Part shown: piece by piece, positions 6,493-51,509 of the stretch | Position numbering within the stretch: position 1 is the stretch's first letter | How the letters are laid out: every line of letters begins with the position of its first letter | Assembly: GCA_964479425.1 (NCBI GenBank) | Contig: CAYZMD010000001.1 | Span: 936-64,935, forward strand | DNA: 64,000 nucleotides | Origin: an uncultured Methanosarcinales archaeon | GTDB taxonomy: Archaea; Nanobdellota; Nanobdellia; Woesearchaeales; CAYSVS01 | Reading direction: 5' to 3' | Position numbers and translations under genes: made by a program | The notes under the pieces: generated by a model | What the model was told of the DNA's origin: nothing | What the model saw: the letters and a program-made list of their open reading frames with translations, nothing else | Database searches by the model: none

Positions 6493-7716
6493 TTAAATTA
6501 CATTTATACAATCTGTTGCTAAATTCCCAATTACAATTTCCTGTTCTTGTTGAACATTTTTGTCAATGCCTATTACGTTGTTTAAGACATTAATCATCTT
6601 TCCAGAAATCATAAAATCTTTGATTGGTTTTCCATTATATATTGCATGTTCTACTTGCACGGAAAAATCAGAAGTTAATGAATTACCTGTATGTGCTCCC
6701 ATAATAGATTCTATTAATAATCCGTTTGGAATTTTATTTTTGTCTGAATTAAAGTATACATTGCTAAAGGCAATTCCTCCACCAGAACTATTTCCTGTTG
6801 TTTTTGTCTTTGTATGTGTTGCAGTATTATGATCGAAAATAAAATTTTTCAATTTTCCTTTATCTACTATGCACGTATTTTTACTTGCTGTTCCTTCATC
6901 GTCAAAACTACTTGCTTGCATTCCTTTTAATCCATTATCATGTATAGATATATTTTTCATAATATTTTCATTAATTTTTCCACAGAACAAACTTTTGTGT
7001 TTTTCTACATTCTTTCCATTAAAATTATCAAGTAAACTATATTTTGCTAATTCTGAAAAAACTTCAGGGTTTAAAATTACAACTTTTGGTTTATCACTTA
7101 ATTTTTTAGCATTAAGATAAAACAATGTTTTTTCGTTTACTCCTTGTCCCCAGCCACTTGATGTAAAAAACTGATTGCTTTCTTTGTCGTCAAACCAACT
7201 ACAGACCTTTCCTTTATGTTTTGCAACTGTACTTACTCCAATTCCATATTCTGTAGATTTTTCGCAGATATTTATTCCATTAGAATTAAGAATACAATTT
7301 TCGCTTACATTTGTTTGAACAGCCCCACTACTTAAAATTACATTATCTTTAACAATATCTTTTATTATTTTTCTTGCTTCGTCTACTAATATACTTTCGT
7401 CGATATTTGCAAGTTTTTTATCAAAGTTATTTATTTTCTTATATTTGTCTAGGTTGGGTATTCCATAAAAATATTCTTTATTTGCATTTAATTTTGCAAT
7501 TTTGATTGCTTTTTTTACTAATTCTTTATTGAGTTTATTTCCGCTTGCAAACCCTTCTTTATTATTTTTCCAAACCCTTATTGAATATAATGCTGTTTCT
7601 TTTTCCTGAAATGATTTAATGCTATTATTTTCTATGCTTAGAGATTTTTCTTGATTTTTATCTATATTTACTTGAATATGATCTACAAAATTATCTGCAT
7701 ATTTGATTACATTCAT
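6493..7716 (-). CDS. tldE: TldE/PmbA family metalloprotease component
   Basis: PmbA/TldD-fold C-terminal region (GAHTGNSLTSDFSV...). The internal ATG (MNVIKYADNF) gives an ATGA overlap with the tldD stop. The ORF-track start at 7797 is an upstream extension. Confidence 0.7.
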   Translation of the reverse strand: MNVIKYADNFVDHIQVNIDKNQEKSLSIENNSIKSFQEKETALYSIRVWKNNKEGFASGNKLNKELVKKAIKIAKLNANKEYFYGIPNLDKYKKINNFDKKLANIDESILVDEARKIIKDIVKDNVILSSGAVQTNVSENCILNSNGINICEKSTEYGIGVSTVAKHKGKVCSWFDDKESNQFFTSSGWGQGVNEKTLFYLNAKKLSDKPKVVILNPEVFSELAKYSLLDNFNGKNVEKHKSLFCGKINENIMKNISIHDNGLKGMQASSFDDEGTASKNTCIVDKGKLKNFIFDHNTATHTKTKTTGNSSGGGIAFSNVYFNSDKNKIPNGLLIESIMGAHTGNSLTSDFSVQVEHAIYNGKPIKDFMISGKMINVLNNVIGIDKNVQQEQEIVIGNLATDCINVI

Positions 7717-9065
7717 TGTCCGCCCACCCTTGCTTTTTTTATTAGTATGCTTGGACAAGGACCATATACTGGAACGTATTGTCCTCCTTTTCCACAATGT
7801 CCTGCAAAACTAGGTTCATATTCGTCAGATATCATTGTAATATCATTAAGTATTTTTAAGGTATTTCCTGATAGGCTAACTCCTTTTAATCTTCCTTTAA
7901 GTTCTCCTCTTTCTATGGCAAAGCCTTCTTGTGCTGAGAATGTAAAATTACCAGTTGTTGGATCAACCTGTCCTCCAACGCTTCCTTTTAGAAAAACTCC
8001 TTTCTTTACATTGGAAATAATATCTTCAAATTTATCTTTACCCTTTTTTATATATGTATTTGACATTCTTACTTGAGGCAAAAATGATGCAGATTGAGCT
8101 CTTGCATTTCCTGTTGGCATTGCGTTTAATTTTGCTGCAGTTTCTCTTGAATGCATAAGACCTTTAAGAATTCCTTTTTCAATTAATGTCGTTTTTTGTG
8201 CAGGTATTCCTTCATCATCGTAAAAATAACTACCCCATAAATTAGGCATTGTTGCATCATCATATATATTAATGAATTCTGGAGCTATTTTTTTTCCGCT
8301 TAGTCCTTTTAGACAGCTACTATTTTGTAAAATTTGATCTGCTTCTGCTGCATGCCCTAGTGCTTCATGTATAAAAACATCAGTCAAGGAGCCGTCACAA
8401 ACAACAGGTATATTTCCTGCTTTTGAATGCTTGGCGTTTAACATTTCTAGCGCCGTTTGTGTTGAGCTTTTTATTAACTCTGGCATTCTTTTTGTAACTT
8501 CATATCCTCTTAATTCCCCAACTCTTCCAAAGAAGTTCTCTATTTTATCATTCTTTTTTGTTGTTACTGAAGCTCCAATCATAGTATACTTTAGATTTTG
8601 TTGTATTTCGCTACCTTCAGAATTTACAAATAATAGTTTTTTATCAATTTCATTATAATTAACTAGACAGTTTTTTACTTTATCGTCTTTAATTTTGCTA
8701 TTTTTTAGGACTAGTTTCTTTTTTTCTTCTAGTGTAACATTTTGATTATCTATTTTCCATTTACTTTTTACATTCTTTTTTATTCTTTTTGTTTCAGCGA
8801 ATTCTCTTTTTTCTGTAGTATTTTTATCCATTAATTTAGCAATTTTTAACGCTTTTTTAACTCCTTTCTCAATATTATTAGAATATACAAAACCTTGTCC
8901 ATTGCCAGATATTATTCTAATGGAACTTCCTTGTCTTTGATTAGAATCAAAATTCTTGATATGGTTGTTCCAAGCAGAAACAGATAAATTATCTATATCT
9001 TGTCTTCTAAAGTCCCAATATTTAACATTCTCTTTTTTTAATAGTTTAGAAATTTTATTATACAT
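7713..9065 (-). CDS. tldD: TldD metalloprotease
   Basis: HEALGHAAEAD (HExxxH) zinc motif. TldD-like length (450 aa). Immediately upstream of the tldE/pmbA partner. Confidence 0.75.
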   Translation of the reverse strand: MYNKISKLLKKENVKYWDFRRQDIDNLSVSAWNNHIKNFDSNQRQGSSIRIISGNGQGFVYSNNIEKGVKKALKIAKLMDKNTTEKREFAETKRIKKNVKSKWKIDNQNVTLEEKKKLVLKNSKIKDDKVKNCLVNYNEIDKKLLFVNSEGSEIQQNLKYTMIGASVTTKKNDKIENFFGRVGELRGYEVTKRMPELIKSSTQTALEMLNAKHSKAGNIPVVCDGSLTDVFIHEALGHAAEADQILQNSSCLKGLSGKKIAPEFINIYDDATMPNLWGSYFYDDEGIPAQKTTLIEKGILKGLMHSRETAAKLNAMPTGNARAQSASFLPQVRMSNTYIKKGKDKFEDIISNVKKGVFLKGSVGGQVDPTTGNFTFSAQEGFAIERGELKGRLKGVSLSGNTLKILNDITMISDEYEPSFAGHCGKGGQYVPVYGPCPSILIKKARVGGQ

Positions 9066-43841: not shown

Positions 43842-45191
43842 TTAATTATATTCTATTTCGTATTTTTCATCTGGATTTTTCTGTTTCTTAGTTTTCTTCT
43901 TATCTCCTGAAAAAAAAGTTTTTCTTCTAGAATATTGTAAAGGATTTCTTACTTTATTACATAAATTATCTGGAGAACAAACCTGTAAATCTTTATAGAA
44001 TGTAGAAGTACAATTGTGAGGTAAAACTCTCTTTTTATTTTGTTTATGATATCTTATTTGTCCTTTTATCATTACTTCTCTTAATGGTTCGGGATTAGCT
44101 TTATTCCATTCTACTAACCTTTTTTCAATCATTTCATGACTCCATCCAGAGGATGCCATAAAATTAACTAAACAAAATAAAGCCCTTTTCCTTCCATCTG
44201 CAAGTCCTTCTAACATTTTTTTAATGCAAGGTGGAAATAAATCTTCAATAATTGCTTCTTCTGGAATTTCGTACTCCTTTTTGTCTTCTACAATTTGTTT
44301 ATATTCGTCCTCTATTTGCGGTTCAAAATCATATGCCTGAACAAATAAATTCTTAGCTTCTCCCTCAATTGCACTTTCTCTGTCTAAAAACTTTATTGAA
44401 AAATCATTCACATTCTCAGGCTTTGCTTGTTTCTTACTAAAACTTAGTATTTTATCTAATTCCACAGGAATGCTGACTAGTCCAGATTTTTCATTAAATG
44501 AATAGTTATGTCTAAGTAAATGCCTTGAAGAAATTAGAATAGTATCAATTTCTAATACTAAGAAAGGATCAAACTCTCCTTTATCCATTATTTCATCTAT
44601 TCCGCTCTTTTCTTTTATTGTTTCAAAAGAGTCCTTGATCATCATTTTTTTAAGATGCCCTCTAATCATATCTTTAAGGTAGGCAGCAATTCTTCTTGGA
44701 GCTTCAGGAAATAATTTTCTTATTTCTTGATTACTAACTGTTTTAGGAAATGCTTCAAATGGCACGGCAATATGGTATCCATGATTTCCAGAAAATTTCA
44801 CACTGACAGAATCTATACCATGATGTTTTAGTGCATGCACTAGTAGGTGTGCTGCCATTCCGCTATATCCCAAATCTTTACAGTCAATATCAAGTATTAA
44901 ATCCCATCCACTTCTTAATGTTTCTATCTCATTCTTTTTCATTAGTGGATCAATAGCAAGAGGGTTATTCCAAGTCTCTTCAGAAAAATGAAAGGAAGTT
45001 ATGCCTTGTTTTACTAATTCAAGAATATCTCCTTCATACATGATTGTATCTGGTCTTCTTGCATAGCCTTTTCCGCCATAGCTACCAACAACTTCTTTAT
45101 TCTGGCTAATTCTAACTATCTCTTTTTGAACTTCCTTTCTAGAATAATGTTTGAGTACAATATTTTTATCAATCTCAATCATGTCAGCCAT
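43842..45191 (-). CDS. priS: DNA primase catalytic subunit PriS fused to a PriL-like C-terminal (Fe-S) domain
   Basis: AEP motifs LILDIDCKD (DxD) and SGNHGYHIAV. The C-terminal LFPPCIKKMLEGL ... CLVNF ... C ... C resembles the PriL-CTD FPPCM region. ATG at 45191 (MADMIEID). Confidence 0.7.
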   Translation of the reverse strand: MADMIEIDKNIVLKHYSRKEVQKEIVRISQNKEVVGSYGGKGYARRPDTIMYEGDILELVKQGITSFHFSEETWNNPLAIDPLMKKNEIETLRSGWDLILDIDCKDLGYSGMAAHLLVHALKHHGIDSVSVKFSGNHGYHIAVPFEAFPKTVSNQEIRKLFPEAPRRIAAYLKDMIRGHLKKMMIKDSFETIKEKSGIDEIMDKGEFDPFLVLEIDTILISSRHLLRHNYSFNEKSGLVSIPVELDKILSFSKKQAKPENVNDFSIKFLDRESAIEGEAKNLFVQAYDFEPQIEDEYKQIVEDKKEYEIPEEAIIEDLFPPCIKKMLEGLADGRKRALFCLVNFMASSGWSHEMIEKRLVEWNKANPEPLREVMIKGQIRYHKQNKKRVLPHNCTSTFYKDLQVCSPDNLCNKVRNPLQYSRRKTFFSGDKKKTKKQKNPDEKYEIEYN

Positions 45192-45299
45192 ATGTTTTTT
45201 AATTTTTAGCAATCTTATATAGTTTGTTATAATACAAACAATAATTAATGAAAAGTAAATTCTTAGCAAATATAGTATTATAATAGTATTATAAGAGTT

Positions 45300-47544: not shown

Positions 47545-47640
47545 ATAGCTTACGCGTACCTGTCCAGTGTGTCCAGTGCTCTAAAAGAGAAACTGGACGC
47601 CAGGAACGATAGTGACAGGATGTCCAGTGCCGTTTTATCA
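47545..47640. other. GC-rich intergenic island with three copies of TGTCCAGTG (candidate operator array or small RNA)
   Basis: tgtccagtg at 47561-47569, 47570-47578 (tandem) and 47611-47619. Inverted copy ctggac at 47594-47599. Sits between the divergent hef and HIT genes. Confidence 0.3.
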
Positions 47641-47707
47641 TTATTTGATATAGAATTGTTCAACAAAAAGCAAAAAGGCTTATAAGTTATTATGACCTAT
47701 CTGATTT

Positions 47708-48478
47708 ATGAATAGGAATAGTATCAATGAAGGATGTGTTCTTTGTGATGGAATATCTAATGACTTTTTAAGTATGAATAAAACATATCCGAACTTGACT
47801 GATTCTCCTGTCCTTTTTAGAACAGACAATTATGTTATAATTCCGGATAAATATCCTTTGGGTGAGGGCCATGTACTTGTTGTACCTAAAAAACATGTAA
47901 ATTCTTTTGCAGAATTTGATAGCGAAGAATCTTTAGAAATTGGATTTATTTATGATAAGCTTCGGCAAATTACAAATGCTGATTCTTTTTTAATCTTTGA
48001 ACATGGAACTAGCAAACTTGAACAAGCTACAACTGATCCGAAGATAAAGTCTATTTTTCATGCTCATTTGCAATTTATTCCAAATTTGGGGTGTACTTAT
48101 GAAGGTTTAGAGGATTTTTTTGGAGTAAAGGATGTTCAACTATTAGATGAGTTAGGCAAATCTAGATCTTTGGAGGAATATAGACAAGATTATGTAGGAA
48201 ATGGTGAGATTGTAAATTTTCTTAGAAAGAATACAGCTTATGATGATGAATCTATAAATTCTATAGCATCTTACCTGTATATAAGGACATCAGATGATAA
48301 TCAATTTTTCTTTCCAGAACATTTAATCACTCCAAAATTGCCATCGCAATTTTTACGAGAAGCTTTATCGGATGTTAGTAATACTCCAGAATGGAATTGG
48401 AAGATTGCTATGACTGATGAAGGGTTAGCGAAGTATTTTGATAGAATCATTAGAACAATTGATTTATTTAAAAAATGA
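47708..48478 (+). CDS. HIT-superfamily protein, GalT-branch-like (HxHxQ), putative nucleotidyl-transferase/Ap4A phosphorylase-like
   Basis: GHVLVVPKKHV substrate-loop motif and FHAHLQFIP (H-x-H-x-Q). 256 aa, larger than Hint-type HIT proteins. N-terminal CVLCD. Confidence 0.55.
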   Translation: MNRNSINEGCVLCDGISNDFLSMNKTYPNLTDSPVLFRTDNYVIIPDKYPLGEGHVLVVPKKHVNSFAEFDSEESLEIGFIYDKLRQITNADSFLIFEHGTSKLEQATTDPKIKSIFHAHLQFIPNLGCTYEGLEDFFGVKDVQLLDELGKSRSLEEYRQDYVGNGEIVNFLRKNTAYDDESINSIASYLYIRTSDDNQFFFPEHLITPKLPSQFLREALSDVSNTPEWNWKIAMTDEGLAKYFDRIIRTIDLFKK

Positions 48479-49494
48479 AACTAAAAGATATGCCTAAATT
48501 TAAAAGAGAAGAATCTCCAGAACATATAAGAAATATAATAGATTCTTTTTTTAATTATTTTCTAGATTTATCATATTTATTACACGAACCCGTTAAAATT
48601 CATTCAGGGATTGATACTTCAGTGCATTATATTGGGGCCCATATAAGCGTGTTAAAAAAATATCTTATAAATGATAATGTTCCGGAAAAAGGATTTGTGA
48701 TGTCTCAACCTTGTGTTAGAACACAAAATCTAAAAAAATATTCTGATGATTTTTATATTCCTAATTGGGGTTCTTTCTTTCATAGTTTAGGTGCTTTAGT
48801 AAGAATTGATAAAATTGAAGAAGCAACCGCACAAACTTTTGATTTGCTAAGAAACGTGTGGGGAATTAATGAAGAAGATATAATTTTAAGGGTAAGTAAA
48901 AAAGACAAGGATTTAATGGCTTTAGCAAAAGCAAATGCTTCTTCAGAATTTCTTGAAGTAGATACTATGAATCCTATATATTATAGACATAAATTTGGAT
49001 TGGAAACAATTTTCGGACGAAGTTTTAATATTGCTTTAAGAGATTATGAAAAAAACACTTATTCAGATATAGGAAATATAATAATTCTTGAAGATAGGAA
49101 TAAACCTGTGGGTGTTGAGATTGCTTTGGGAACTTCTACTGTGCTTAAGCAAGTACATGGTTTAAGTCATGTGTTGGATTGTCATCCTCTTTTGGGAACA
49201 GATATAATTGAACAAAAAAGTATTCGTTTAAAATTGGAAGATTGTATTATAACATCAATGCATCTTTATCATCAAGGTTTGGAACCTTCTAATAAACATA
49301 TTACAAATAGATTAATGAGAAAATATATGAAAAATATTGCAAAGGTTTTAGAAAAAGGATATTTTTCTGAAGATAATTTTTTAAATATGATTAAAAGATA
49401 TGAAAAATCTGAATTTGGAATTAATTCTCATACGCAAAGATTTATTTCCTATTTAGAATATTTTAATACAATTACGAAAAAAACTGTTTTGTAG
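48475..49494 (+). CDS. Stand-alone class II aaRS catalytic-core-like protein resembling the AlaRS N-terminal domain (no editing, tRNA-recognition or C-Ala domains)
   Basis: IRNIIDSFFNYF aligns with AlaRS EIRQAFLDFF. SQPCVRT aligns with SQRCVRAGG (motif 2). NWGSFFHSLG aligns with HHTFFEMLGNFSFG. GVEIALGTSTVLKQV aligns with DTGMGLERIAAVLQ. The AlaRS consensus is recalled from memory. ATGA overlap with the HIT gene. Confidence 0.45.
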   Translation: MKLKDMPKFKREESPEHIRNIIDSFFNYFLDLSYLLHEPVKIHSGIDTSVHYIGAHISVLKKYLINDNVPEKGFVMSQPCVRTQNLKKYSDDFYIPNWGSFFHSLGALVRIDKIEEATAQTFDLLRNVWGINEEDIILRVSKKDKDLMALAKANASSEFLEVDTMNPIYYRHKFGLETIFGRSFNIALRDYEKNTYSDIGNIIILEDRNKPVGVEIALGTSTVLKQVHGLSHVLDCHPLLGTDIIEQKSIRLKLEDCIITSMHLYHQGLEPSNKHITNRLMRKYMKNIAKVLEKGYFSEDNFLNMIKRYEKSEFGINSHTQRFISYLEYFNTITKKTVL

Positions 49495-49560: not shown

Positions 49561-49944
49561 CTAAAGAAGACCATCTTCCAATAATTTAGGAATTAATATT
49601 GTTTCAATTGTATATCTCATTTTGGGCAGATTATCTCTTGAAAACCAATCACACCCACCAATTTCTTGTGATGGAATAGGAGTTCCTCCATGTTTAACAA
49701 AATAACAATATACTTCTTGTTTTTGTTTATATACTTCATTAAAAGTTTTATAATTAATATATTCCCGTGTCGATACCAAATTTATTTTCAATTCCTCAGA
49801 AAGTTCTCTTTTAAGAGCTTCTTCATGGGTTTCACCTTCATCAACTTTTCCTCCCGGTGTCCAATAAACTTTTTTTTCTTTGTCTGTTACTAGAAGAATC
49901 TTTTTATCTTGAATAATTACCGCTGAAATACGATTAGCTAACAT
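49561..49944 (-). CDS. NUDIX hydrolase (stand-alone)
   Basis: Nudix box GGKVDEGETHEEALKRELSEELKI. Confidence 0.8.
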   Translation of the reverse strand: MLANRISAVIIQDKKILLVTDKEKKVYWTPGGKVDEGETHEEALKRELSEELKINLVSTREYINYKTFNEVYKQKQEVYCYFVKHGGTPIPSQEIGGCDWFSRDNLPKMRYTIETILIPKLLEDGLL

Positions 49945-49990
49945 AGAATTTGGGAAGGGTATGTAATTTAAAAGTTTTATGCAACTAAAC

Positions 49991-50004
49991 TCAAATCAAT
50001 TTGA
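49991..50004. promoter_or_regulatory. 14-bp palindrome TCAAATCAATTTGA (16 bp with flanks CTCAAATCAATTTGAG), putative operator
   Basis: The identical 14-mer recurs at 50750-50763. Each copy lies 37-38 nt upstream of the ATG of a wHTH-NUDIX paralog and next to a TATA-like stretch. Confidence 0.55.
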
Positions 50005-50041
50005 GGAATTCTTTATAAGGTTTCTAATTTTTCTTATTTTT

Positions 50042-50737
50042 ATGAATGATACTCAAAGGCAAATTCTATTGAAACTTATTCATCATCCTAAATTATCATT
50101 TACACAATTATTAGCTGGTAGGCGTGATTCTAATTTATTTGCTTATCACCTGACTACGTTAAAAGAGAAGAATATTATAGAATTAAATGATGGATTTTAT
50201 TCTCTATCTGACGAAGGTAGAAAGATGTCTGCTTTTATTGAGGGAGATACTGGTAAAAAGGCATTATTTCCTACGTTTGTTCATGGGCTTATTATAGAAA
50301 AAGATGGTAAAATCTTGGTACAAAAACGACTAAAAGAACCATTTTATGGATATTGGAGTTTAATCTCCGGAAAGATTAATTTAGGACTGAATATTGAAGA
50401 ATGTGCAAATCATGATCTTACAGAAGAAACTGGATTAATTGCAAATAGTAGTAAGATTATAGGTATTAACCAGATAAAAACACTAAAGGATAATAATCTT
50501 TCTTTTCATTGTATAGTATTTTTAGTAAAACTGTTTGGTATTCAAGGAGAGCTTATTGAAAAAACTCATAAAGGAATAAACAAGTGGATGACAATTGAGG
50601 AATATAAAAAACAGAAAAGGTTTCCGGATCCTTGGCTAGATGATGTGCTTAATGCTAAGGAATTCATTTTTTTAGAGACTGAAAGAACATTTGAAAATAA
50701 AGAGTTCGTAGATTTTAAAATTATTAAACAAAGGTAA
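50042..50737 (+). CDS. Winged-HTH + NUDIX fusion protein, putative Nudix-related transcriptional regulator, paralog 1 (the ORF-track start 49979 would include the operator)
   Basis: N-term QRQILLKLIHHPKLSFTQLL ... HLTTLKEKNIIE wHTH. Nudix box SGKINLGLNIEECANHDLTEETGL. Confidence 0.65.
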   Translation: MNDTQRQILLKLIHHPKLSFTQLLAGRRDSNLFAYHLTTLKEKNIIELNDGFYSLSDEGRKMSAFIEGDTGKKALFPTFVHGLIIEKDGKILVQKRLKEPFYGYWSLISGKINLGLNIEECANHDLTEETGLIANSSKIIGINQIKTLKDNNLSFHCIVFLVKLFGIQGELIEKTHKGINKWMTIEEYKKQKRFPDPWLDDVLNAKEFIFLETERTFENKEFVDFKIIKQR

Positions 50738-50749
50738 CACCAATTAAGC

Positions 50750-50763
50750 TCAAATCAATTTGA
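50750..50763. promoter_or_regulatory. Second copy of palindrome TCAAATCAATTTGA, with downstream TATA-like ttttatatttatata
   Basis: Exact repeat of 49991-50004. 38 nt upstream of the ATG at 50802. Confidence 0.55.
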
Positions 50764-50801
50764 CTTTTATATTTATATACTTCTAGATTTTTCCCTAAAT
50801 C

Positions 50802-51509
50802 ATGGGAAACGAAATCCAAGAATACATCATCAAAAAATTAATTCATAATCCTAATATGAGGTTTAATGAATTGCTGGATAAAAAATTTGAAAGTAATAAG
50901 TTTTCTTATCATATTAAACAATTAGAAGCAGTTGGATTAATTGAAAAAAAAGATGAAACCTATAGTTTAAGCCATGAGGGTAAAAAGTATTCAACCTTTA
51001 TTGAAGGAAATACTGGGGCTAAAGCCAAAGCTCCTTTGTCTGCTGTAATTATGTTTGCGATTAAAGGAGATAAAGTTCTTTTAATGAAAAGGTTAAAGGA
51101 ACCATTCTATGGTTGTTCTGGAGGACATGGTGGAAAAATTAAATTTAACCAATATCCTGATGAATGTGCAAAAGAAGAATTCAAAGAGGAGACAGGTCTT
51201 GATGCGGATGTTGAACTAAAAGGAATATATTTATCAAAAACATATAATAACAAAAAACAAAGTTATAATCATCAATTTTATATTTACTTATGTACTAATT
51301 TAGAGGGTGAATTGATAGAAAAAGATAGAGAAGGAGAGAATTATTGGATAGAAATTTCTAAAATTTATGAATTGTATATTTTTCCAGATGTTCCTAAATT
51401 GATAGAAATGTGCACTCGCCCAGGTTTTACAGTTTTTGAAGCTGATAGACACCAAGAAAATGACGAATTTAAAAACATGGTAATCAGAAAACACATTCAG
51501 TATTCATGA
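50802..51509 (+). CDS. Winged-HTH + NUDIX fusion protein, paralog 2
   Basis: IQEYIIKKLIHNPNMRFNELL ... HIKQLEAVGLIEK wHTH. Nudix box GGKIKFNQYPDECAKEEFKEETGL. Confidence 0.65.
   Translation: MGNEIQEYIIKKLIHNPNMRFNELLDKKFESNKFSYHIKQLEAVGLIEKKDETYSLSHEGKKYSTFIEGNTGAKAKAPLSAVIMFAIKGDKVLLMKRLKEPFYGCSGGHGGKIKFNQYPDECAKEEFKEETGLDADVELKGIYLSKTYNNKKQSYNHQFYIYLCTNLEGELIEKDREGENYWIEISKIYELYIFPDVPKLIEMCTRPGFTVFEADRHQENDEFKNMVIRKHIQYS

What the first reader, a model, noticed from the sequence alone, without database searches (positions are those of the whole stretch)
47708..49494. Overlapping GalT-branch HIT gene and truncated AlaRS-catalytic-core-like gene
A 256-aa HIT protein carries the H-x-H-x-Q variant (FHAHLQ). 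That variant marks the nucleotidyl-transferase/phosphorylase (GalT/Apa) branch, not Hint hydrolases. Its stop overlaps (ATGA) the start of a 339-aa protein. By eye, that protein's sequence tracks the first ~300 residues of alanyl-tRNA synthetase: FLDFF-like N-term, SQxCVR motif-2, FFxxLG, and GxGxERxxxVLQ-like blocks, with the AlaRS consensus recalled from memory. It stops before the tRNA-binding, editing and C-Ala domains. aaRS cores form aminoacyl-adenylates and Ap4A, and HIT proteins act on exactly these products. A coupled pair suggests a dedicated aminoacyl-adenylate or dinucleoside-polyphosphate pathway, or a non-ribosomal amino-acid ligase with a proofreading/recycling partner. I know of no described stand-alone AlaRS catalytic paralog of this kind.
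Basis: partly seen in the sequence, partly recalled or inferred. Interest (0 to 1): 0.75.

Follow-up and report, generated by a model that had tools for sequence, protein, structure and literature searches.

The report
HIT enzyme plus truncated AlaRS-like enzyme
An archaeal two-gene unit pairs a nucleotide-cleaving HIT enzyme with a shortened, rewired copy of the alanyl-tRNA synthetase core; it belongs to a large uncharacterised family that probably makes or handles amino-acid-nucleotide conjugates resembling known antibiotics.

Summary
Both ORFs, the ATGA overlap and the FHAHLQ motif are real. The 339-aa protein is a genuine AlaRS-core homologue: profile vs PDB AlaRS E 2.7e-9; AF2 model pLDDT 94.5; Foldseek top hits AlaRS catalytic fragments, E 5e-15, TM 0.76. 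It is not an AlaRS or an alaS fragment. It is one of at least 336 clusters of stand-alone 320-400-aa proteins. The family keeps the motif-2 Arg, the adenine-stacking Phe and the Asn. It has Glu for AlaRS Asp235, Ala for Gly237 and never an Arg at motif 3. One described enzyme shares this pattern: AcmF, which uses Ala-tRNA to N-aminoacylate a sulfamoyl-adenosine. Across 49 loci the family sits next to MccF-like S66 peptidases (42), AsnRS-like cores (32), methyltransferases, HD or HIT hydrolases and extra GlyRS copies (13). GNAT, HD, methyltransferase and receiver-domain fusions also occur. The HIT is not GalT-branch: its homologues carry HxHxH and its fold is CwfJ/Hint/Fhit-like. Best reading: an AcmF-like aminoacyl-nucleotide synthase with a HIT partner acting on the phosphoramidate, acquired as a two-gene unit by an AT-rich archaeon. 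The chemistry is inferred, not shown.

The parts
47680..47690 (+). TTATAAGTTAT, a putative archaeal TATA-like promoter element 18-28 nt upstream of the HIT start codon
   Evidence: The same 11-mer lies 19-29 nt upstream of the orthologous HIT start in L054, in an otherwise different intergenic region. The promoter function is inferred, not tested.
47708..48478 (+). Two-domain HIT-superfamily gene (256 aa): an N-terminal HIT domain with CxxC (C10, C13) and H118-A-H120-L-Q122, plus a conserved C-terminal domain (~127-256; invariant Y189, P212, F215-L216-R217, W231)
   Evidence: Pfam DcpS_C and HIT above cut-off. 34 homologues found. Alignment A2 gives the invariant residues. AF2 model pLDDT 85. 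Best full-length structural matches are CWF19/Drn1-type HIT proteins, then Hint, Fhit and Ap4A phosphorylase Rv2613c.
48059..48073 (+). Histidine-triad motif H-A-H-L-Q; the third His is Gln only in this archaeal clade
   Evidence: In alignment A2, 4 of 22 sequences (the window and its closest relatives) carry Q and 18 of 22 carry H.
48475..48478 (+). ATGA stop/start overlap, suggesting translational coupling of the two genes
   Evidence: The same overlap occurs in L054.
48475..49494 (+). Stand-alone truncated AlaRS-like gene (339 aa): an AlaRS-type class II aminoacylation fold (~1-236) plus a four-helix remnant of the tRNA-recognition domain (~248-338). No editing or C-Ala domain.
48706..48720 (+). 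Q78-P-C-V-R82, the equivalent of AlaRS S-Q-R-C-V-R (motif-2 Arg). Q78 and R82 are essentially invariant in the family.
   Evidence: hhalign. Census: Q in 239 of 244 sequences, R in 232 of 244.
49117..49140 (+). E215-I-A217-L-G219-T-S-T222, the equivalent of AlaRS D235-T-G237-M-G-L-E-R (motif 3). Changes: Asp to Glu, Gly to Ala, Arg to Thr.
   Evidence: hhalign. Census: E in 235 of 244 (D in 1); A in 189 and G in 42; never R at position 222.

Best explanation
The two genes are one translationally coupled module that handles an aminoacyl-nucleotide, meaning an amino acid linked to an adenosine-type nucleotide in the manner of an aminoacyl-AMP mimic.

The AlaRS-like protein does not charge tRNA-Ala. 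Its family keeps the half of the AlaRS site that holds the adenosine and alpha-phosphate of aa-AMP: R82, F102, D198 and N201. It has rebuilt the half that activates alanine with ATP: Asp235 to Glu215, Gly237 to Ala217, motif-3 Arg to Thr222. It has also gained new invariant residues: D144, D146, H172, R182 and N185.

By analogy with AcmF, the only characterised enzyme with this architecture and the same Asp-to-Glu change, it most likely binds a nucleotide analogue carrying a free amino group in the aa-AMP site. It would then transfer a small amino acid onto that nitrogen, probably from aminoacyl-tRNA. Glycine or alanine is the likely amino acid, because extra GlyRS genes flank the family and the pocket looks narrowed. 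The product would be an N-acyl aminoacyl-nucleotide.

The HIT partner acts on the P-N or P-O bond of the same nucleotide. Either it supplies the acceptor (HIT enzymes can make adenosine 5'-phosphoramidate) or, like MccH, it hydrolyses the product to keep it non-toxic. In bacteria an MccF-like S66 peptidase removes the aminoacyl group. The archaeal lineage carries only the HIT + AlaRS-like core.

Shown: homology, active-site substitutions, conserved gene pairing, conserved neighbourhoods and fusions.
Inferred: the substrates, tRNA dependence, the direction of the HIT reaction and the biological role (antibiotic or toxin production versus control).
For: 1. AlaRS-core fold with high confidence.

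2. Family-wide substitutions at exactly the Ala/ATP-activating positions, with the aa-AMP-holding residues retained (244 sequences). In the same operons the AsnRS-like partner keeps its motif-3 Arg in 32 of 32 sequences and its motif-2 Arg in 28 of 32. The loss in the AlaRS-like protein is therefore specific to it.

3. AcmF precedent (PMC12945691; PMC4257720):
- It is 370 aa, with aminoacylation and tRNA-recognition domains only.
- It lacks the ATP and Ala-activation residues and carries D232E, which is essential.
- It uses Ala-tRNA, and also Gly- or Ser-tRNA, to acylate the sulfamate NH2 of dealanylascamycin.
- Its cluster also encodes a resistant full-length AlaRS (AcmD) and a hydrolase that removes the alanyl group (AcmE).
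- The residue spacings W-x3-F, D/E-x2-N/Q and N/Q-to-E (+14 here, +13 in AcmF) match the residues quoted for AcmF.

4. Neighbourhoods in 49 loci:
- S66 peptidase in 42. It scores 4e-105 to B. anthracis 'MccF-like' BA_5613, 1e-38 to MccF and only 1e-17 to murein LdcA.
- AsnRS/AsnA-like core in 32.
- SAM methyltransferase in 30.
- HD hydrolase in 16.
- HIT in 8.
- Genuine GlyRS or fused GlyQS in 13, from six unrelated lineages, with two conserved GlyRS paralogues inside the cluster in three genomes.

5. Fusions: GNAT (RimI-like)+AlaRS-like, AlaRS-like+HD, AlaRS-like+methyltransferase, methyltransferase+S66, kinase+HIT. S66 (MccF), HIT (MccH) and GNAT (MccE) are enzyme families known to detoxify aminoacyl-nucleotide antibiotics. 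PMC7157772 supports MccH. The MccE assignment is from my own knowledge.

6. HIT enzymes can synthesise adenosine 5'-phosphoramidate from APS and ammonia (PMC4613722 abstract).

7. The pair travels as a unit. It has different neighbours in the window and in L054-57. The archaeal clade is sister to the alphaproteobacterial HIT-type clade.
Against: - No biochemical data exist for any member of this family.
- The AcmF sequence could not be obtained, so direct relatedness, as opposed to parallel change, is untested.
- AcmF's second change (Asn to Gln) is not shared: N201 is conserved. The motif-2 loop here has AlaRS-like length, whereas AcmF's appears about 10 residues shorter.
- New invariant basic residues (R182, and K61 or K225) could replace the motif-3 Arg, so ATP use is not excluded.
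- The window has no S66, GlyRS, exporter or acceptor-building genes. In this archaeon the module may therefore do less, or something different, than in bacteria.
- The family's median pI of ~5.9 gives no general sign of RNA binding.
- No product is known.
Confidence: 0.4

Rival explanations
1. The AlaRS-like core still activates a small amino acid (Gly or Ala) with ATP to an aminoacyl-adenylate, or makes Ap4A. It acts as a non-ribosomal ligase. The HIT enzyme hydrolyses or transfers the adenylate or dinucleotide, for proofreading, recycling or alarmone turnover.
For: - The motif-2 Arg, the adenine-stacking Phe, the D198/N201 pair and a full-length motif-2 loop are retained.
- New invariant R182, H172 and K61 could bind the phosphates.
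- Hint enzymes hydrolyse aminoacyl-adenylates and class II aaRSs make Ap4A (my own knowledge).
- NUDIX genes lie next to the pair in the window and in L038 and L046.
- ATP-grasp ligases sit beside some members.
Against: - The motif-3 Arg, which as far as I know is universal in adenylate-forming class II enzymes, is absent in all 244 members. It is kept in the co-encoded AsnRS-like protein.
- The alpha-amino-binding Asp is Glu. In AcmF this change goes with loss of adenylation.
- The NUDIX genes are not conserved next to the archaeal pair.
- The dominant partner is a peptidase of the MccF type, which suggests a stable amide rather than a labile acyl-phosphate.
Confidence: 0.2
2. This is an immunity-only module. 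The truncated AlaRS core is a high-affinity binder, or a detoxifying enzyme, for exogenous aminoacyl-AMP-mimic antibiotics. The HIT (MccH-like), together with S66, GNAT and HD in bacteria, destroys them. Extra GlyRS copies are replacement targets.
For: - The associated enzyme families include three (S66, HIT, GNAT) known as immunity enzymes against such compounds.
- The retained residues are those that hold aa-AMP.
- Most loci show no exporter or obvious precursor genes.
- The family occurs in reduced-genome symbionts (CPR, DPANN) that live among antibiotic producers.
Against: - A stoichiometric decoy would not need the many new invariant polar residues (D144, D146, H172, R182, N185, D256).
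- The tightly conserved operon with a methyltransferase and a catalytically intact AsnRS-like ligase looks like a pathway.
- The Arthrobacter and Humibacillus loci carry an MFS transporter, ATP-grasp ligases and, in Humibacillus, a weakly P450-like gene. They look like biosynthetic clusters.
- The AcmF precedent is biosynthetic.
Confidence: 0.2
3. The protein is a tRNA- or RNA-directed enzyme. Like GluQRS/YadB or EpmA, the truncated synthetase core would aminoacylate a modified nucleoside in an RNA, or a protein. The CwfJ/DcpS-like HIT would process an RNA 5' end (adenylate or cap).
For: - A remnant of the acceptor-stem-binding helical domain is retained, with a P-S-N segment aligned to AlaRS P-S-N-E-N-R-G-Y.
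- This C-terminal domain is basic in the window protein, pI 9.4.
- The HIT model best matches the spliceosomal CWF19/Drn1 proteins and Pfam DcpS_C.
Against: - The patchy, horizontally transferred distribution next to transposases and integrases is unlike that of core RNA-modification genes.
- This model gives no explanation for the MccF-like peptidase, the GNAT fusion or the duplicated GlyRS.
- P-S-N is not conserved outside the HIT-type clade.
Confidence: 0.1
4. The gene is the catalytic half of a genuine split AlaRS, as in Nanoarchaeum, or a decaying alaS fragment.
For: The host is an AT-rich archaeon with a fused PriS-PriL primase, of the kind in which split genes occur. A split AlaRS in Nanoarchaeum is from my own knowledge.
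Against: - Scores are far below the AlaRS cut-offs: 18 bits against 457.
- Three catalytic positions are altered family-wide.
- The closest relatives are in bacteria, including large free-living genomes (Arthrobacter, Humibacillus, Dysgonomonas, Calothrix) that should, as for any bacterium, encode a normal alaS; this was not checked here.
- The gene is intact and conserved at 73-82% identity among sister archaea.
- There is a convergent gene immediately downstream.
Confidence: 0.02

Closest known systems
AcmF, the AlaRS-like aminoacyl-tRNA-dependent transferase of ascamycin biosynthesis (Streptomyces; Zheng et al. 2024; PMC12945691)
   Same: - Stand-alone protein of ~340-370 aa with the AlaRS aminoacylation domain plus a tRNA-recognition remnant, and no editing or C-Ala domain.
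- The motif-2 Arg and aromatic stacking residues are retained.
- AlaRS Asp235 is replaced by Glu.
- Canonical activation residues are lost.
- Family loci also encode an extra full-length aaRS and a hydrolase able to remove an aminoacyl group, parallel to AcmD and AcmE.
   Different: - The Asn equivalent to AlaRS N212 is kept, whereas AcmF has Gln.
- The motif-2 loop is full length.
- The associated full-length synthetase is GlyRS, not AlaRS.
- The partners are HIT, HD, methyltransferase, S66 and an AsnRS-like core, not sulfamate-building enzymes.
- The hosts are archaea, CPR and many other phyla.
Canonical alanyl-tRNA synthetase catalytic fragment (e.g. E. coli AlaRS 1-441, PDB 3HXU; A. aeolicus 1RIQ)
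   Same: - Same fold (Foldseek E 5e-15, TM 0.76).
- Aligned FLDFF-like helix, SQxCVR, FFxxLG and I-x-N blocks.
- P-S-N segment of the helical domain.
   Different: - 14-15% identity and about 100 residues shorter.
- Asp235 to Glu, Gly237 to Ala, motif-3 Glu-Arg to Ser-Thr.
- Below all curated AlaRS thresholds.
- No editing or C-Ala domains.
Microcin C immunity enzymes MccF (S66 peptidase), MccH (HIT phosphoramidase) and MccE-CTD (GNAT)
   Same: The same three enzyme superfamilies are linked to this AlaRS-like family, either genetically or by fusion. MccH shows that a HIT enzyme can cleave the P-N bond of an aminoacyl-adenylate mimic.
   Different: - No MccA/MccB-type peptide-adenylating system is present.
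- The HIT here is a 256-aa two-domain protein, with Gln at the third triad position in this clade.
- Relatedness to MccH itself was not tested.
Hint/Fhit/CwfJ-type HIT proteins
   Same: HIT fold, a CxxC motif (Zn-binding in some Hint proteins, from my own knowledge; not tested here) and the central nucleophile His. The full-length architecture is most like the CwfJ C-terminal domains (CWF19/Drn1).
   Different: A distinct, conserved C-terminal domain, obligate pairing with an AlaRS-like gene, and HxHxQ in the archaeal clade.

Membership tests
Canonical AlaRS (PF01411 / TIGR00344 alaS) | Profile score at or above the curated cut-off | tested here: not met
   PF01411 15.7 bits against 30.3; TIGR00344 18.4 bits against 457.
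Canonical AlaRS (PF01411 / TIGR00344 alaS) | AlaRS-type class II aminoacylation fold | tested here: met
   AF2 model pLDDT 94.5. The top 20 Foldseek PDB hits are all AlaRS (nearly all catalytic fragments), E 5e-15, TMq 0.76.
Canonical AlaRS (PF01411 / TIGR00344 alaS) | Motif-2 Arg (E. coli R69) | tested here: met
   R82 aligns to it. R is present in 232 of 244 family members.
Canonical AlaRS (PF01411 / TIGR00344 alaS) | Alanine-pocket Asp235 and Gly237 | tested here: not met
   Glu215 and Ala217. E in 235 of 244, D in 1; A in 189, G in 42.
Canonical AlaRS (PF01411 / TIGR00344 alaS) | Motif-3 G-x-G-x-E-R arginine (ATP binding) | tested here: not met
   A-L-G-T-S-T. Position 222 is T, V, N, A, S or I, and never R, in 244 sequences.
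Canonical AlaRS (PF01411 / TIGR00344 alaS) | Editing domain and C-Ala domain | tested here: not met
   The protein ends at residue 339 after a four-helix bundle. A convergent NUDIX gene lies downstream.
AcmF-type AlaRS-like aminoacyl transferase | Truncated architecture: aminoacylation domain plus tRNA-recognition domain only, ~370 aa | tested here: met
   339 aa. Strands and helices 1-236 plus helices 248-338 aligned to AlaRS 255-355. AcmF is 370 aa.
AcmF-type AlaRS-like aminoacyl transferase | Asp to Glu at the alpha-amino-binding position (AcmF E232, essential) | tested here: met
   E215, invariant in 96% of the family.
AcmF-type AlaRS-like aminoacyl transferase | Asn to Gln at the AlaRS N212 position (AcmF Q219) | tested here: not met
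   N201 is conserved in 236 of 244 sequences.
AcmF-type AlaRS-like aminoacyl transferase | Loss of ATP-binding residues | tested here: inconclusive
   The motif-3 Arg is lost, but the motif-2 Arg, the loop length, the Phe and the D/N pair are kept, and new invariant R182 and H172 are present.
AcmF-type AlaRS-like aminoacyl transferase | Closer in sequence to AcmF than to true AlaRS | not testable with these tools
   The AcmF sequence (GenBank KJ817374) is not retrievable here. A profile search with A3 did not return a named AcmF. The afdb50 library was unavailable.
AcmF-type AlaRS-like aminoacyl transferase | Cluster also encodes a full-length aaRS (donor supply and resistance) and an aminoacyl-removing hydrolase | tested here: inconclusive
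   This holds for the family: GlyRS or GlyQS in 13 loci and an MccF-like S66 in 42 of 49. Neither is present in this 64-kb window.
AcmF-type AlaRS-like aminoacyl transferase | aa-tRNA-dependent N-aminoacylation activity | not testable with these tools
   This needs enzymology.
HIT superfamily, GalT/Apa (nucleotidyl-transferase) branch | H-x-H-x-Q as a family trait | tested here: not met
   Q122 occurs only in the window clade (4 of 22). The other homologues have HxHxH (H-A-H-[LI]-H).
HIT superfamily, GalT/Apa (nucleotidyl-transferase) branch | Significant match to GalT or Apa profiles or structures | tested here: not met
   No GalT Pfam hit for the window protein. 'ATP adenylyltransferase' scores 17 bits against a cut-off of 290. 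GalT is absent from the top 50 structural hits and Apa2 ranks 27th with TM 0.35.
HIT superfamily (general) | HIT fold with the central nucleophile His, and Pfam HIT or DcpS_C above cut-off | tested here: met
   PF11969 29.2 bits against 24; PF01230 23.9 bits against 21.5. H118 and H120 are invariant. Hint and Fhit structures match the N-terminal domain.
MccH-type aminoacyl-phosphoramidate hydrolase | Sequence membership in the MccH clade and activity on aminoacyl-phosphoramidate adenylates | not tested
   No MccH sequence was available. The analogy rests on superfamily and genomic context only.

The most novel reading that the evidence does not exclude
The window carries the minimal form of a widespread, undescribed biosynthetic system. 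The HIT enzyme makes a nucleoside 5'-phosphoramidate. The AlaRS-like enzyme then uses Gly- or Ala-tRNA to acylate its nitrogen, producing a non-hydrolysable glycyl- or alanyl-adenylate mimic that inhibits a tRNA synthetase. This would be a peptide-independent route to microcin-C-like warheads, used by DPANN archaea, CPR bacteria and many other lineages. MccF-like peptidases and duplicated GlyRS would provide self-protection in bacteria.
Probability: 0.2. Interest if true: 0.85.

Novelty: new variant of a known kind. Interest (0 to 1): 0.6.

Why it matters
Only one truncated AlaRS-like enzyme, AcmF, has been characterised, and it was treated as a curiosity of one Streptomyces pathway. This window shows that proteins with the same architecture and the same key Asp-to-Glu change form a large family. 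The family has at least 336 clusters at 50% identity and spans archaea, CPR bacteria, Proteobacteria, Firmicutes, Actinobacteria, Cyanobacteria and Bacteroidota.

The family sits in a recurrent gene cluster with enzymes otherwise known for cutting aminoacyl-nucleotide antibiotics, and with duplicated GlyRS genes. If the inference holds, three things follow:
- It points to an unexplored class of aminoacyl-nucleotide natural products, possibly GlyRS-directed. I know of no natural GlyRS inhibitor.
- It adds a new use of aminoacyl-tRNA outside translation.
- It provides cultured organisms in which to test this: Calothrix parasitica NIES-267 plasmid2, Arthrobacter sp. UYCu712, Humibacillus xanthopallidus DSM 21776 and Dysgonomonas sp. 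521.

For the archaeon, the module is a horizontally shared accessory unit, not part of the translation apparatus.

Tried and rejected
- Single-sequence search of ORF2 against the PDB gave nothing relevant. A family profile was needed.
- I tried to reach AcmF in three ways and none worked: a broadened profile search (one search returned no named AcmF), cluster names (searches gave only 'alanine--tRNA ligase-related protein' or 'hypothetical'), and Foldseek against afdb50 (the library was not installed).
- tblastn of ORF2 against plasmids and phages found no match.
- PADLOC returned no defence-system model for ORF2. The HIT gave only a marginal ThsC hit, E 7e-4.
- Rfam on the upstream intergenic region found nothing.
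- I searched the window for S66, AsnRS-like, methyltransferase, HD, GlyRS, kinase, radical-SAM and dCTP-deaminase-like partners and found none.
- A literature search for the gene combination returned no paper. Searches for AlaRS-like paralogues returned only the AcmF work.
- Rejected: frameshifted or split alaS; GalT-branch assignment of the HIT; GlyRS-alpha as the nearest relative (TM 0.4 against 0.76); a murein LD-carboxypeptidase role for the S66 partner (66 bits to LdcA against 355 bits to MccF-like BA_5613).
- Protein charge was considered as a test of tRNA binding and proved uninformative: family median pI 5.9.


Full report
**1. The observation**

Two ORFs lie on the + strand: 47708-48478 (256 aa) and 48475-49494 (339 aa). 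They overlap by ATGA.

The region is native-looking archaeal DNA. GC is 27-33% throughout with no compositional break. The neighbours include:
- a Hef-type helicase-nuclease and a fused PriS-PriL primase upstream;
- ribosomal protein L3, topoisomerase VI, RtcB and aRF1;
- both subunits of an archaeal-looking PheRS.

No ORF in the window is long enough to be a full alaS. 66 bp after ORF2 a NUDIX gene runs in the opposite direction. ORF2 is therefore not the head of a frameshifted alaS.

**2. ORF2 is a real but aberrant AlaRS-core homologue**

On its own ORF2 scores below every curated threshold: PF01411 15.7 bits against 30.3, and TIGR00344 18 bits against 457. It has 47 close homologues of 326-381 aa.

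Three further results establish the homology:
- A profile of 31 homologues hits AlaRS catalytic fragments in the PDB at E 2.7e-9. It aligns both the N-terminal half and a second stretch (query 237-338 to AlaRS 255-355), which lies in the tRNA-recognition domain.
- hhalign against E. coli AlaRS 1-442 gives 93% probability over 254 columns.
- The AlphaFold2 model is very confident (pLDDT 94.5, pTM 0.91). Its 20 best Foldseek matches in the PDB are all AlaRS, nearly all catalytic fragments (E 5e-15, TMq 0.76, 14-15% identity). GlyRS-alpha and AsnA reach only TM ~0.4.

An exhaustive HMMER search of 1.84 billion representative proteins finds 336 clusters at E <= 1e-30 and 516 at E <= 1e-10. Nearly all are 320-400 aa. 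The few that carry a name are called 'alanine--tRNA ligase-related protein' or 'hypothetical'.

**3. The active site is half AlaRS, half something else**

In the hhalign alignment the window protein maps onto E. coli AlaRS as follows:
- Q78-P-C-V-R82 aligns with S-Q-R-C-V-R (motif-2 Arg).
- W98-G-S-F-F102 aligns with H-H-T-F-F (adenine stacking).
- D198-I-G-N201 aligns with E-I-W-N.
- V-E215-I-A217-L-G219-T-S-T222 aligns with V-D235-T-G237-M-G-L-E-R.

Across 244 family members:
- Q78, R82, F102 and N201 are essentially invariant.
- Position 215 is Glu in 235 sequences and Asp in one.
- Position 217 is Ala in 189 and Gly in 42.
- The motif-3 Arg position is never Arg.
- Several residues with no AlaRS counterpart are invariant: D144, D146, H172, R182, N185 and D256.

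The motif-2 Arg is kept. The Ala-pocket Asp and Gly are not. The motif-3 Arg is lost. This argues against ordinary alanine activation. The many new invariant polar residues argue that the protein is still an enzyme rather than a relic.

The AsnRS-like protein encoded beside most family members acts as an internal control. It keeps its motif-3 Glu-Arg in 29 and 32 of 32 sequences respectively.

**4. A precedent exists**

The literature search found AcmF of the ascamycin cluster (PMC12945691; PMC4257720). Its reported properties are:
- It is a 370-aa truncated AlaRS-like protein with only the aminoacylation and tRNA-recognition domains.
- It lacks most ATP and Ala-activation residues and carries N219Q and D232E.
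- It uses Ala-tRNA-Ala to acylate the sulfamate nitrogen of dealanylascamycin, giving an Ala-AMS-type compound. The Ala-tRNA is made by the cluster's extra AlaRS, AcmD.
- It also accepts Gly- and Ser-tRNA.
- Glu232 is essential. R93, W100, F104, E216 and Q219 hold the nucleoside.
- AcmD is more resistant to the product than the housekeeping AlaRS.
- AcmE hydrolyses the alanyl group off again.

The present family shares the architecture and the Asp-to-Glu change. It also shares the spacing of the quoted residues: W-x3-F, D/E-x2-N/Q, and 14 against 13 residues from N/Q to the Glu. It differs in keeping the Asn and a full-length motif-2 loop.

I could not obtain the AcmF sequence. Common descent as opposed to parallel evolution therefore remains untested.

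**5. Genomic context of the family**

I fetched 52 related loci and clustered their ORFs. The AlaRS-like gene was recognised in 49 sources (48 of these loci plus the window).

| Neighbour | Number of loci |
|---|---|
| S66 peptidase | 42 |
| AsnRS/AsnA-like catalytic core without anticodon domain | 32 |
| Class I SAM methyltransferase | 30 |
| YedJ-like HD phosphohydrolase | 16 |
| 256-280-aa HIT protein | 8 |
| Genuine GlyRS or fused GlyQS | 13 |

*Operon types.*
- The commonest operon is HD - methyltransferase - AlaRS-like - S66 - AsnRS-like. It occurs in CPR bacteria, Gammaproteobacteria, a Calothrix plasmid and others.
- A second type, in Alphaproteobacteria MAGs, is (radical SAM) - (P-loop kinase) - HIT - AlaRS-like - S66. 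The kinase is sometimes fused to the HIT.
- A third type has dCTP-deaminase-like genes flanking the AlaRS-like gene, together with a radical-SAM enzyme, an alpha/beta hydrolase and a NUDIX gene.
- The Arthrobacter and Humibacillus loci add an MFS transporter, ATP-grasp ligases and a fused GlyQS.

*The S66 partner.* It scores 4e-105 against the B. anthracis 'MccF-like' protein BA_5613, 1e-38 against MccF and only 1e-17 against murein LdcA.

*The GlyRS link.* GlyRS appears in six unrelated lineages. In three Firmicutes genomes two distinct GlyRS paralogue lineages both sit inside the cluster. By my rough estimate a particular synthetase should fall within 8 kb about 1-2% of the time, so the GlyRS link is not chance.

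*Fusions.* These tie the components together: AlaRS-like+HD and methyltransferase+S66 in a Catabacter MAG, AlaRS-like+methyltransferase, RimI-like GNAT+AlaRS-like, receiver domain+AlaRS-like, and kinase+HIT.

S66 (MccF), HIT (MccH; PMC7157772) and GNAT (MccE; from my own knowledge) are enzyme families known to inactivate aminoacyl-nucleotide antibiotics. The shared substrate of these clusters is therefore most simply an aminoacyl-nucleotide.

**6. The HIT protein**

It has a CxxC motif, the invariant H118 and H120, and a conserved C-terminal domain of about 130 residues.

The Gln at the third triad position is confined to the window's own clade. The other 18 of 22 aligned homologues have HxHxH, reading H-A-H-[LI]-H.

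The AF2 model has pLDDT 85. Over its full length it best matches the CwfJ-type HIT proteins CWF19L1/L2 and Drn1 in spliceosome structures (TMq ~0.52). Its N-terminal domain matches Hint, Fhit and the Ap4A phosphorylase Rv2613c. GalT does not appear, and Apa2 ranks 27th with TM 0.35.

The 'GalT/Apa branch' label is therefore not supported. The His-to-Gln change is a recent substitution. It might slow hydrolysis of the nucleotidyl-enzyme intermediate or favour transfer, but that is speculation.

**7. The archaeal module**

In sister archaeal contigs the HIT - AlaRS-like pair recurs in a different neighbourhood. There aCPSF1 lies upstream and a small second HIT lies downstream (L054-56). Another context is seen in L057. 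The ATGA overlap is the same. A conserved TTATAAGTTAT element lies about 20-28 nt upstream of the HIT start.

In a neighbour-joining tree the archaeal clade is sister to the alphaproteobacterial HIT-type clade. One member of that bacterial clade, L014, still has the HD-methyltransferase-AsnRS-like genes. This suggests that HIT, with or without the kinase, replaced those three genes. The archaea then received, or retained, only the two-gene core.

None of the other partners occurs anywhere in the 64-kb window. The three NUDIX genes downstream are not conserved next to the pair in sister contigs, so they are probably unrelated.

**8. Mechanism proposed**

*Shown:* homology, active-site substitutions, gene pairing and overlap, conserved neighbourhoods and fusions.

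*Inferred, with confidence about 0.4:*
- The AlaRS-like enzyme binds an adenosine nucleotide analogue carrying a free amino group where aa-AMP normally sits.
- It transfers a small amino acid to that nitrogen, probably from aminoacyl-tRNA as AcmF does.
- The amino acid is glycine or alanine. The Glu and Ala substitutions should narrow the pocket, and GlyRS is the associated synthetase.
- The HIT enzyme either makes the acceptor or hydrolyses the product. HIT proteins can form adenosine 5'-phosphoramidate from APS and ammonia (PMC4613722). MccH hydrolyses such products.

*Rivals:*
- An immunity-only module against exogenous synthetase inhibitors (0.2).
- An RNA- or protein-directed aminoacylation system (0.1).
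- A genuine or split AlaRS (0.02).

**9. Novelty and verdict**

It is wrong on the HIT branch, on likely adenylate formation, and on the absence of a precedent.

I rate it a new variant of a known kind, the AcmF-type AlaRS-like enzymes. It has an undescribed partner set and a very broad, previously unremarked distribution. Interest is 0.6.

Noticed in passing
window 47561-47629: TGTCCAGTG occurs three times, two in tandem at 47561-47578 and one at 47621-47629. It is found only in the divergent Hef/HIT intergenic region, against 0.08 copies expected by chance. An inverted ACTGGAC lies nearby. There is no Rfam match, and the motif is not conserved upstream of the orthologous pair in L054. It may be an operator site.
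   Followed up: partly
window 49561-51509: Three NUDIX hydrolase genes sit in a row directly downstream of the pair. One is 127 aa on the minus strand. Two are on the plus strand and carry N-terminal winged-helix DUF7347 domains, looking like NrtR-type regulator-hydrolase fusions. They are not next to the pair in sister archaeal contigs.
   Followed up: partly
window 43842-45269: A single 475-aa ORF combines DNA primase small-subunit (PriS) and large-subunit (PriL) domains. Such a fused primase is, to my knowledge, known from Nanoarchaeota-like archaea.
   Followed up: no
L039 7947-11388 (Catabacter MAG): Two gene fusions: AlaRS-like+HD (549 aa), followed by methyltransferase+S66 peptidase (607 aa). 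Other fusions in the family are GNAT+AlaRS-like (P0114), receiver domain+AlaRS-like (P0154) and AlaRS-like+methyltransferase (P0130).
   Followed up: yes
L040, L041, L044 (Bacilli/Clostridia MAGs) and L015: Two GlyRS genes lie inside the same cluster. They fall into two paralogue lineages conserved across genomes: 63-79% identity within a locus and 68-77% between orthologues. This suggests a dedicated or resistant GlyRS copy.
   Followed up: partly
L051 10340-13408 and L052 9016-12120 (Arthrobacter, Humibacillus): A fused GlyQ-GlyS glycyl-tRNA synthetase (~1030 aa) lies directly downstream of the AlaRS-like gene in Actinobacteria. To my knowledge Actinobacteria normally use the dimeric GlyRS. 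The neighbours are an MFS transporter, ATP-grasp ligases, an S66 peptidase and an AsnRS-like core, which looks like a biosynthetic gene cluster.
   Followed up: partly
L054 9798-10298: In the sister archaeon a second, small HIT protein (166 aa) follows the pair. Its triad reads H-A-H-I-K, with Lys in the third position. The window has no equivalent.
   Followed up: partly
L005 11633-15648 (Draconibacterium): The AsnRS-like - AlaRS-like - S66 - ATP-grasp cluster sits beside genes with CTD10, MC6/MC7, DUF2326 and Fic domains and a transposase. This resembles a conflict-system or defence island.
   Followed up: no
window 6493-9065: Adjacent TldD/PmbA-type metallopeptidase genes (434 and 450 aa). 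The listed ORFs overlap by ~85 nt, so the start of the downstream one may be miscalled.
   Followed up: no
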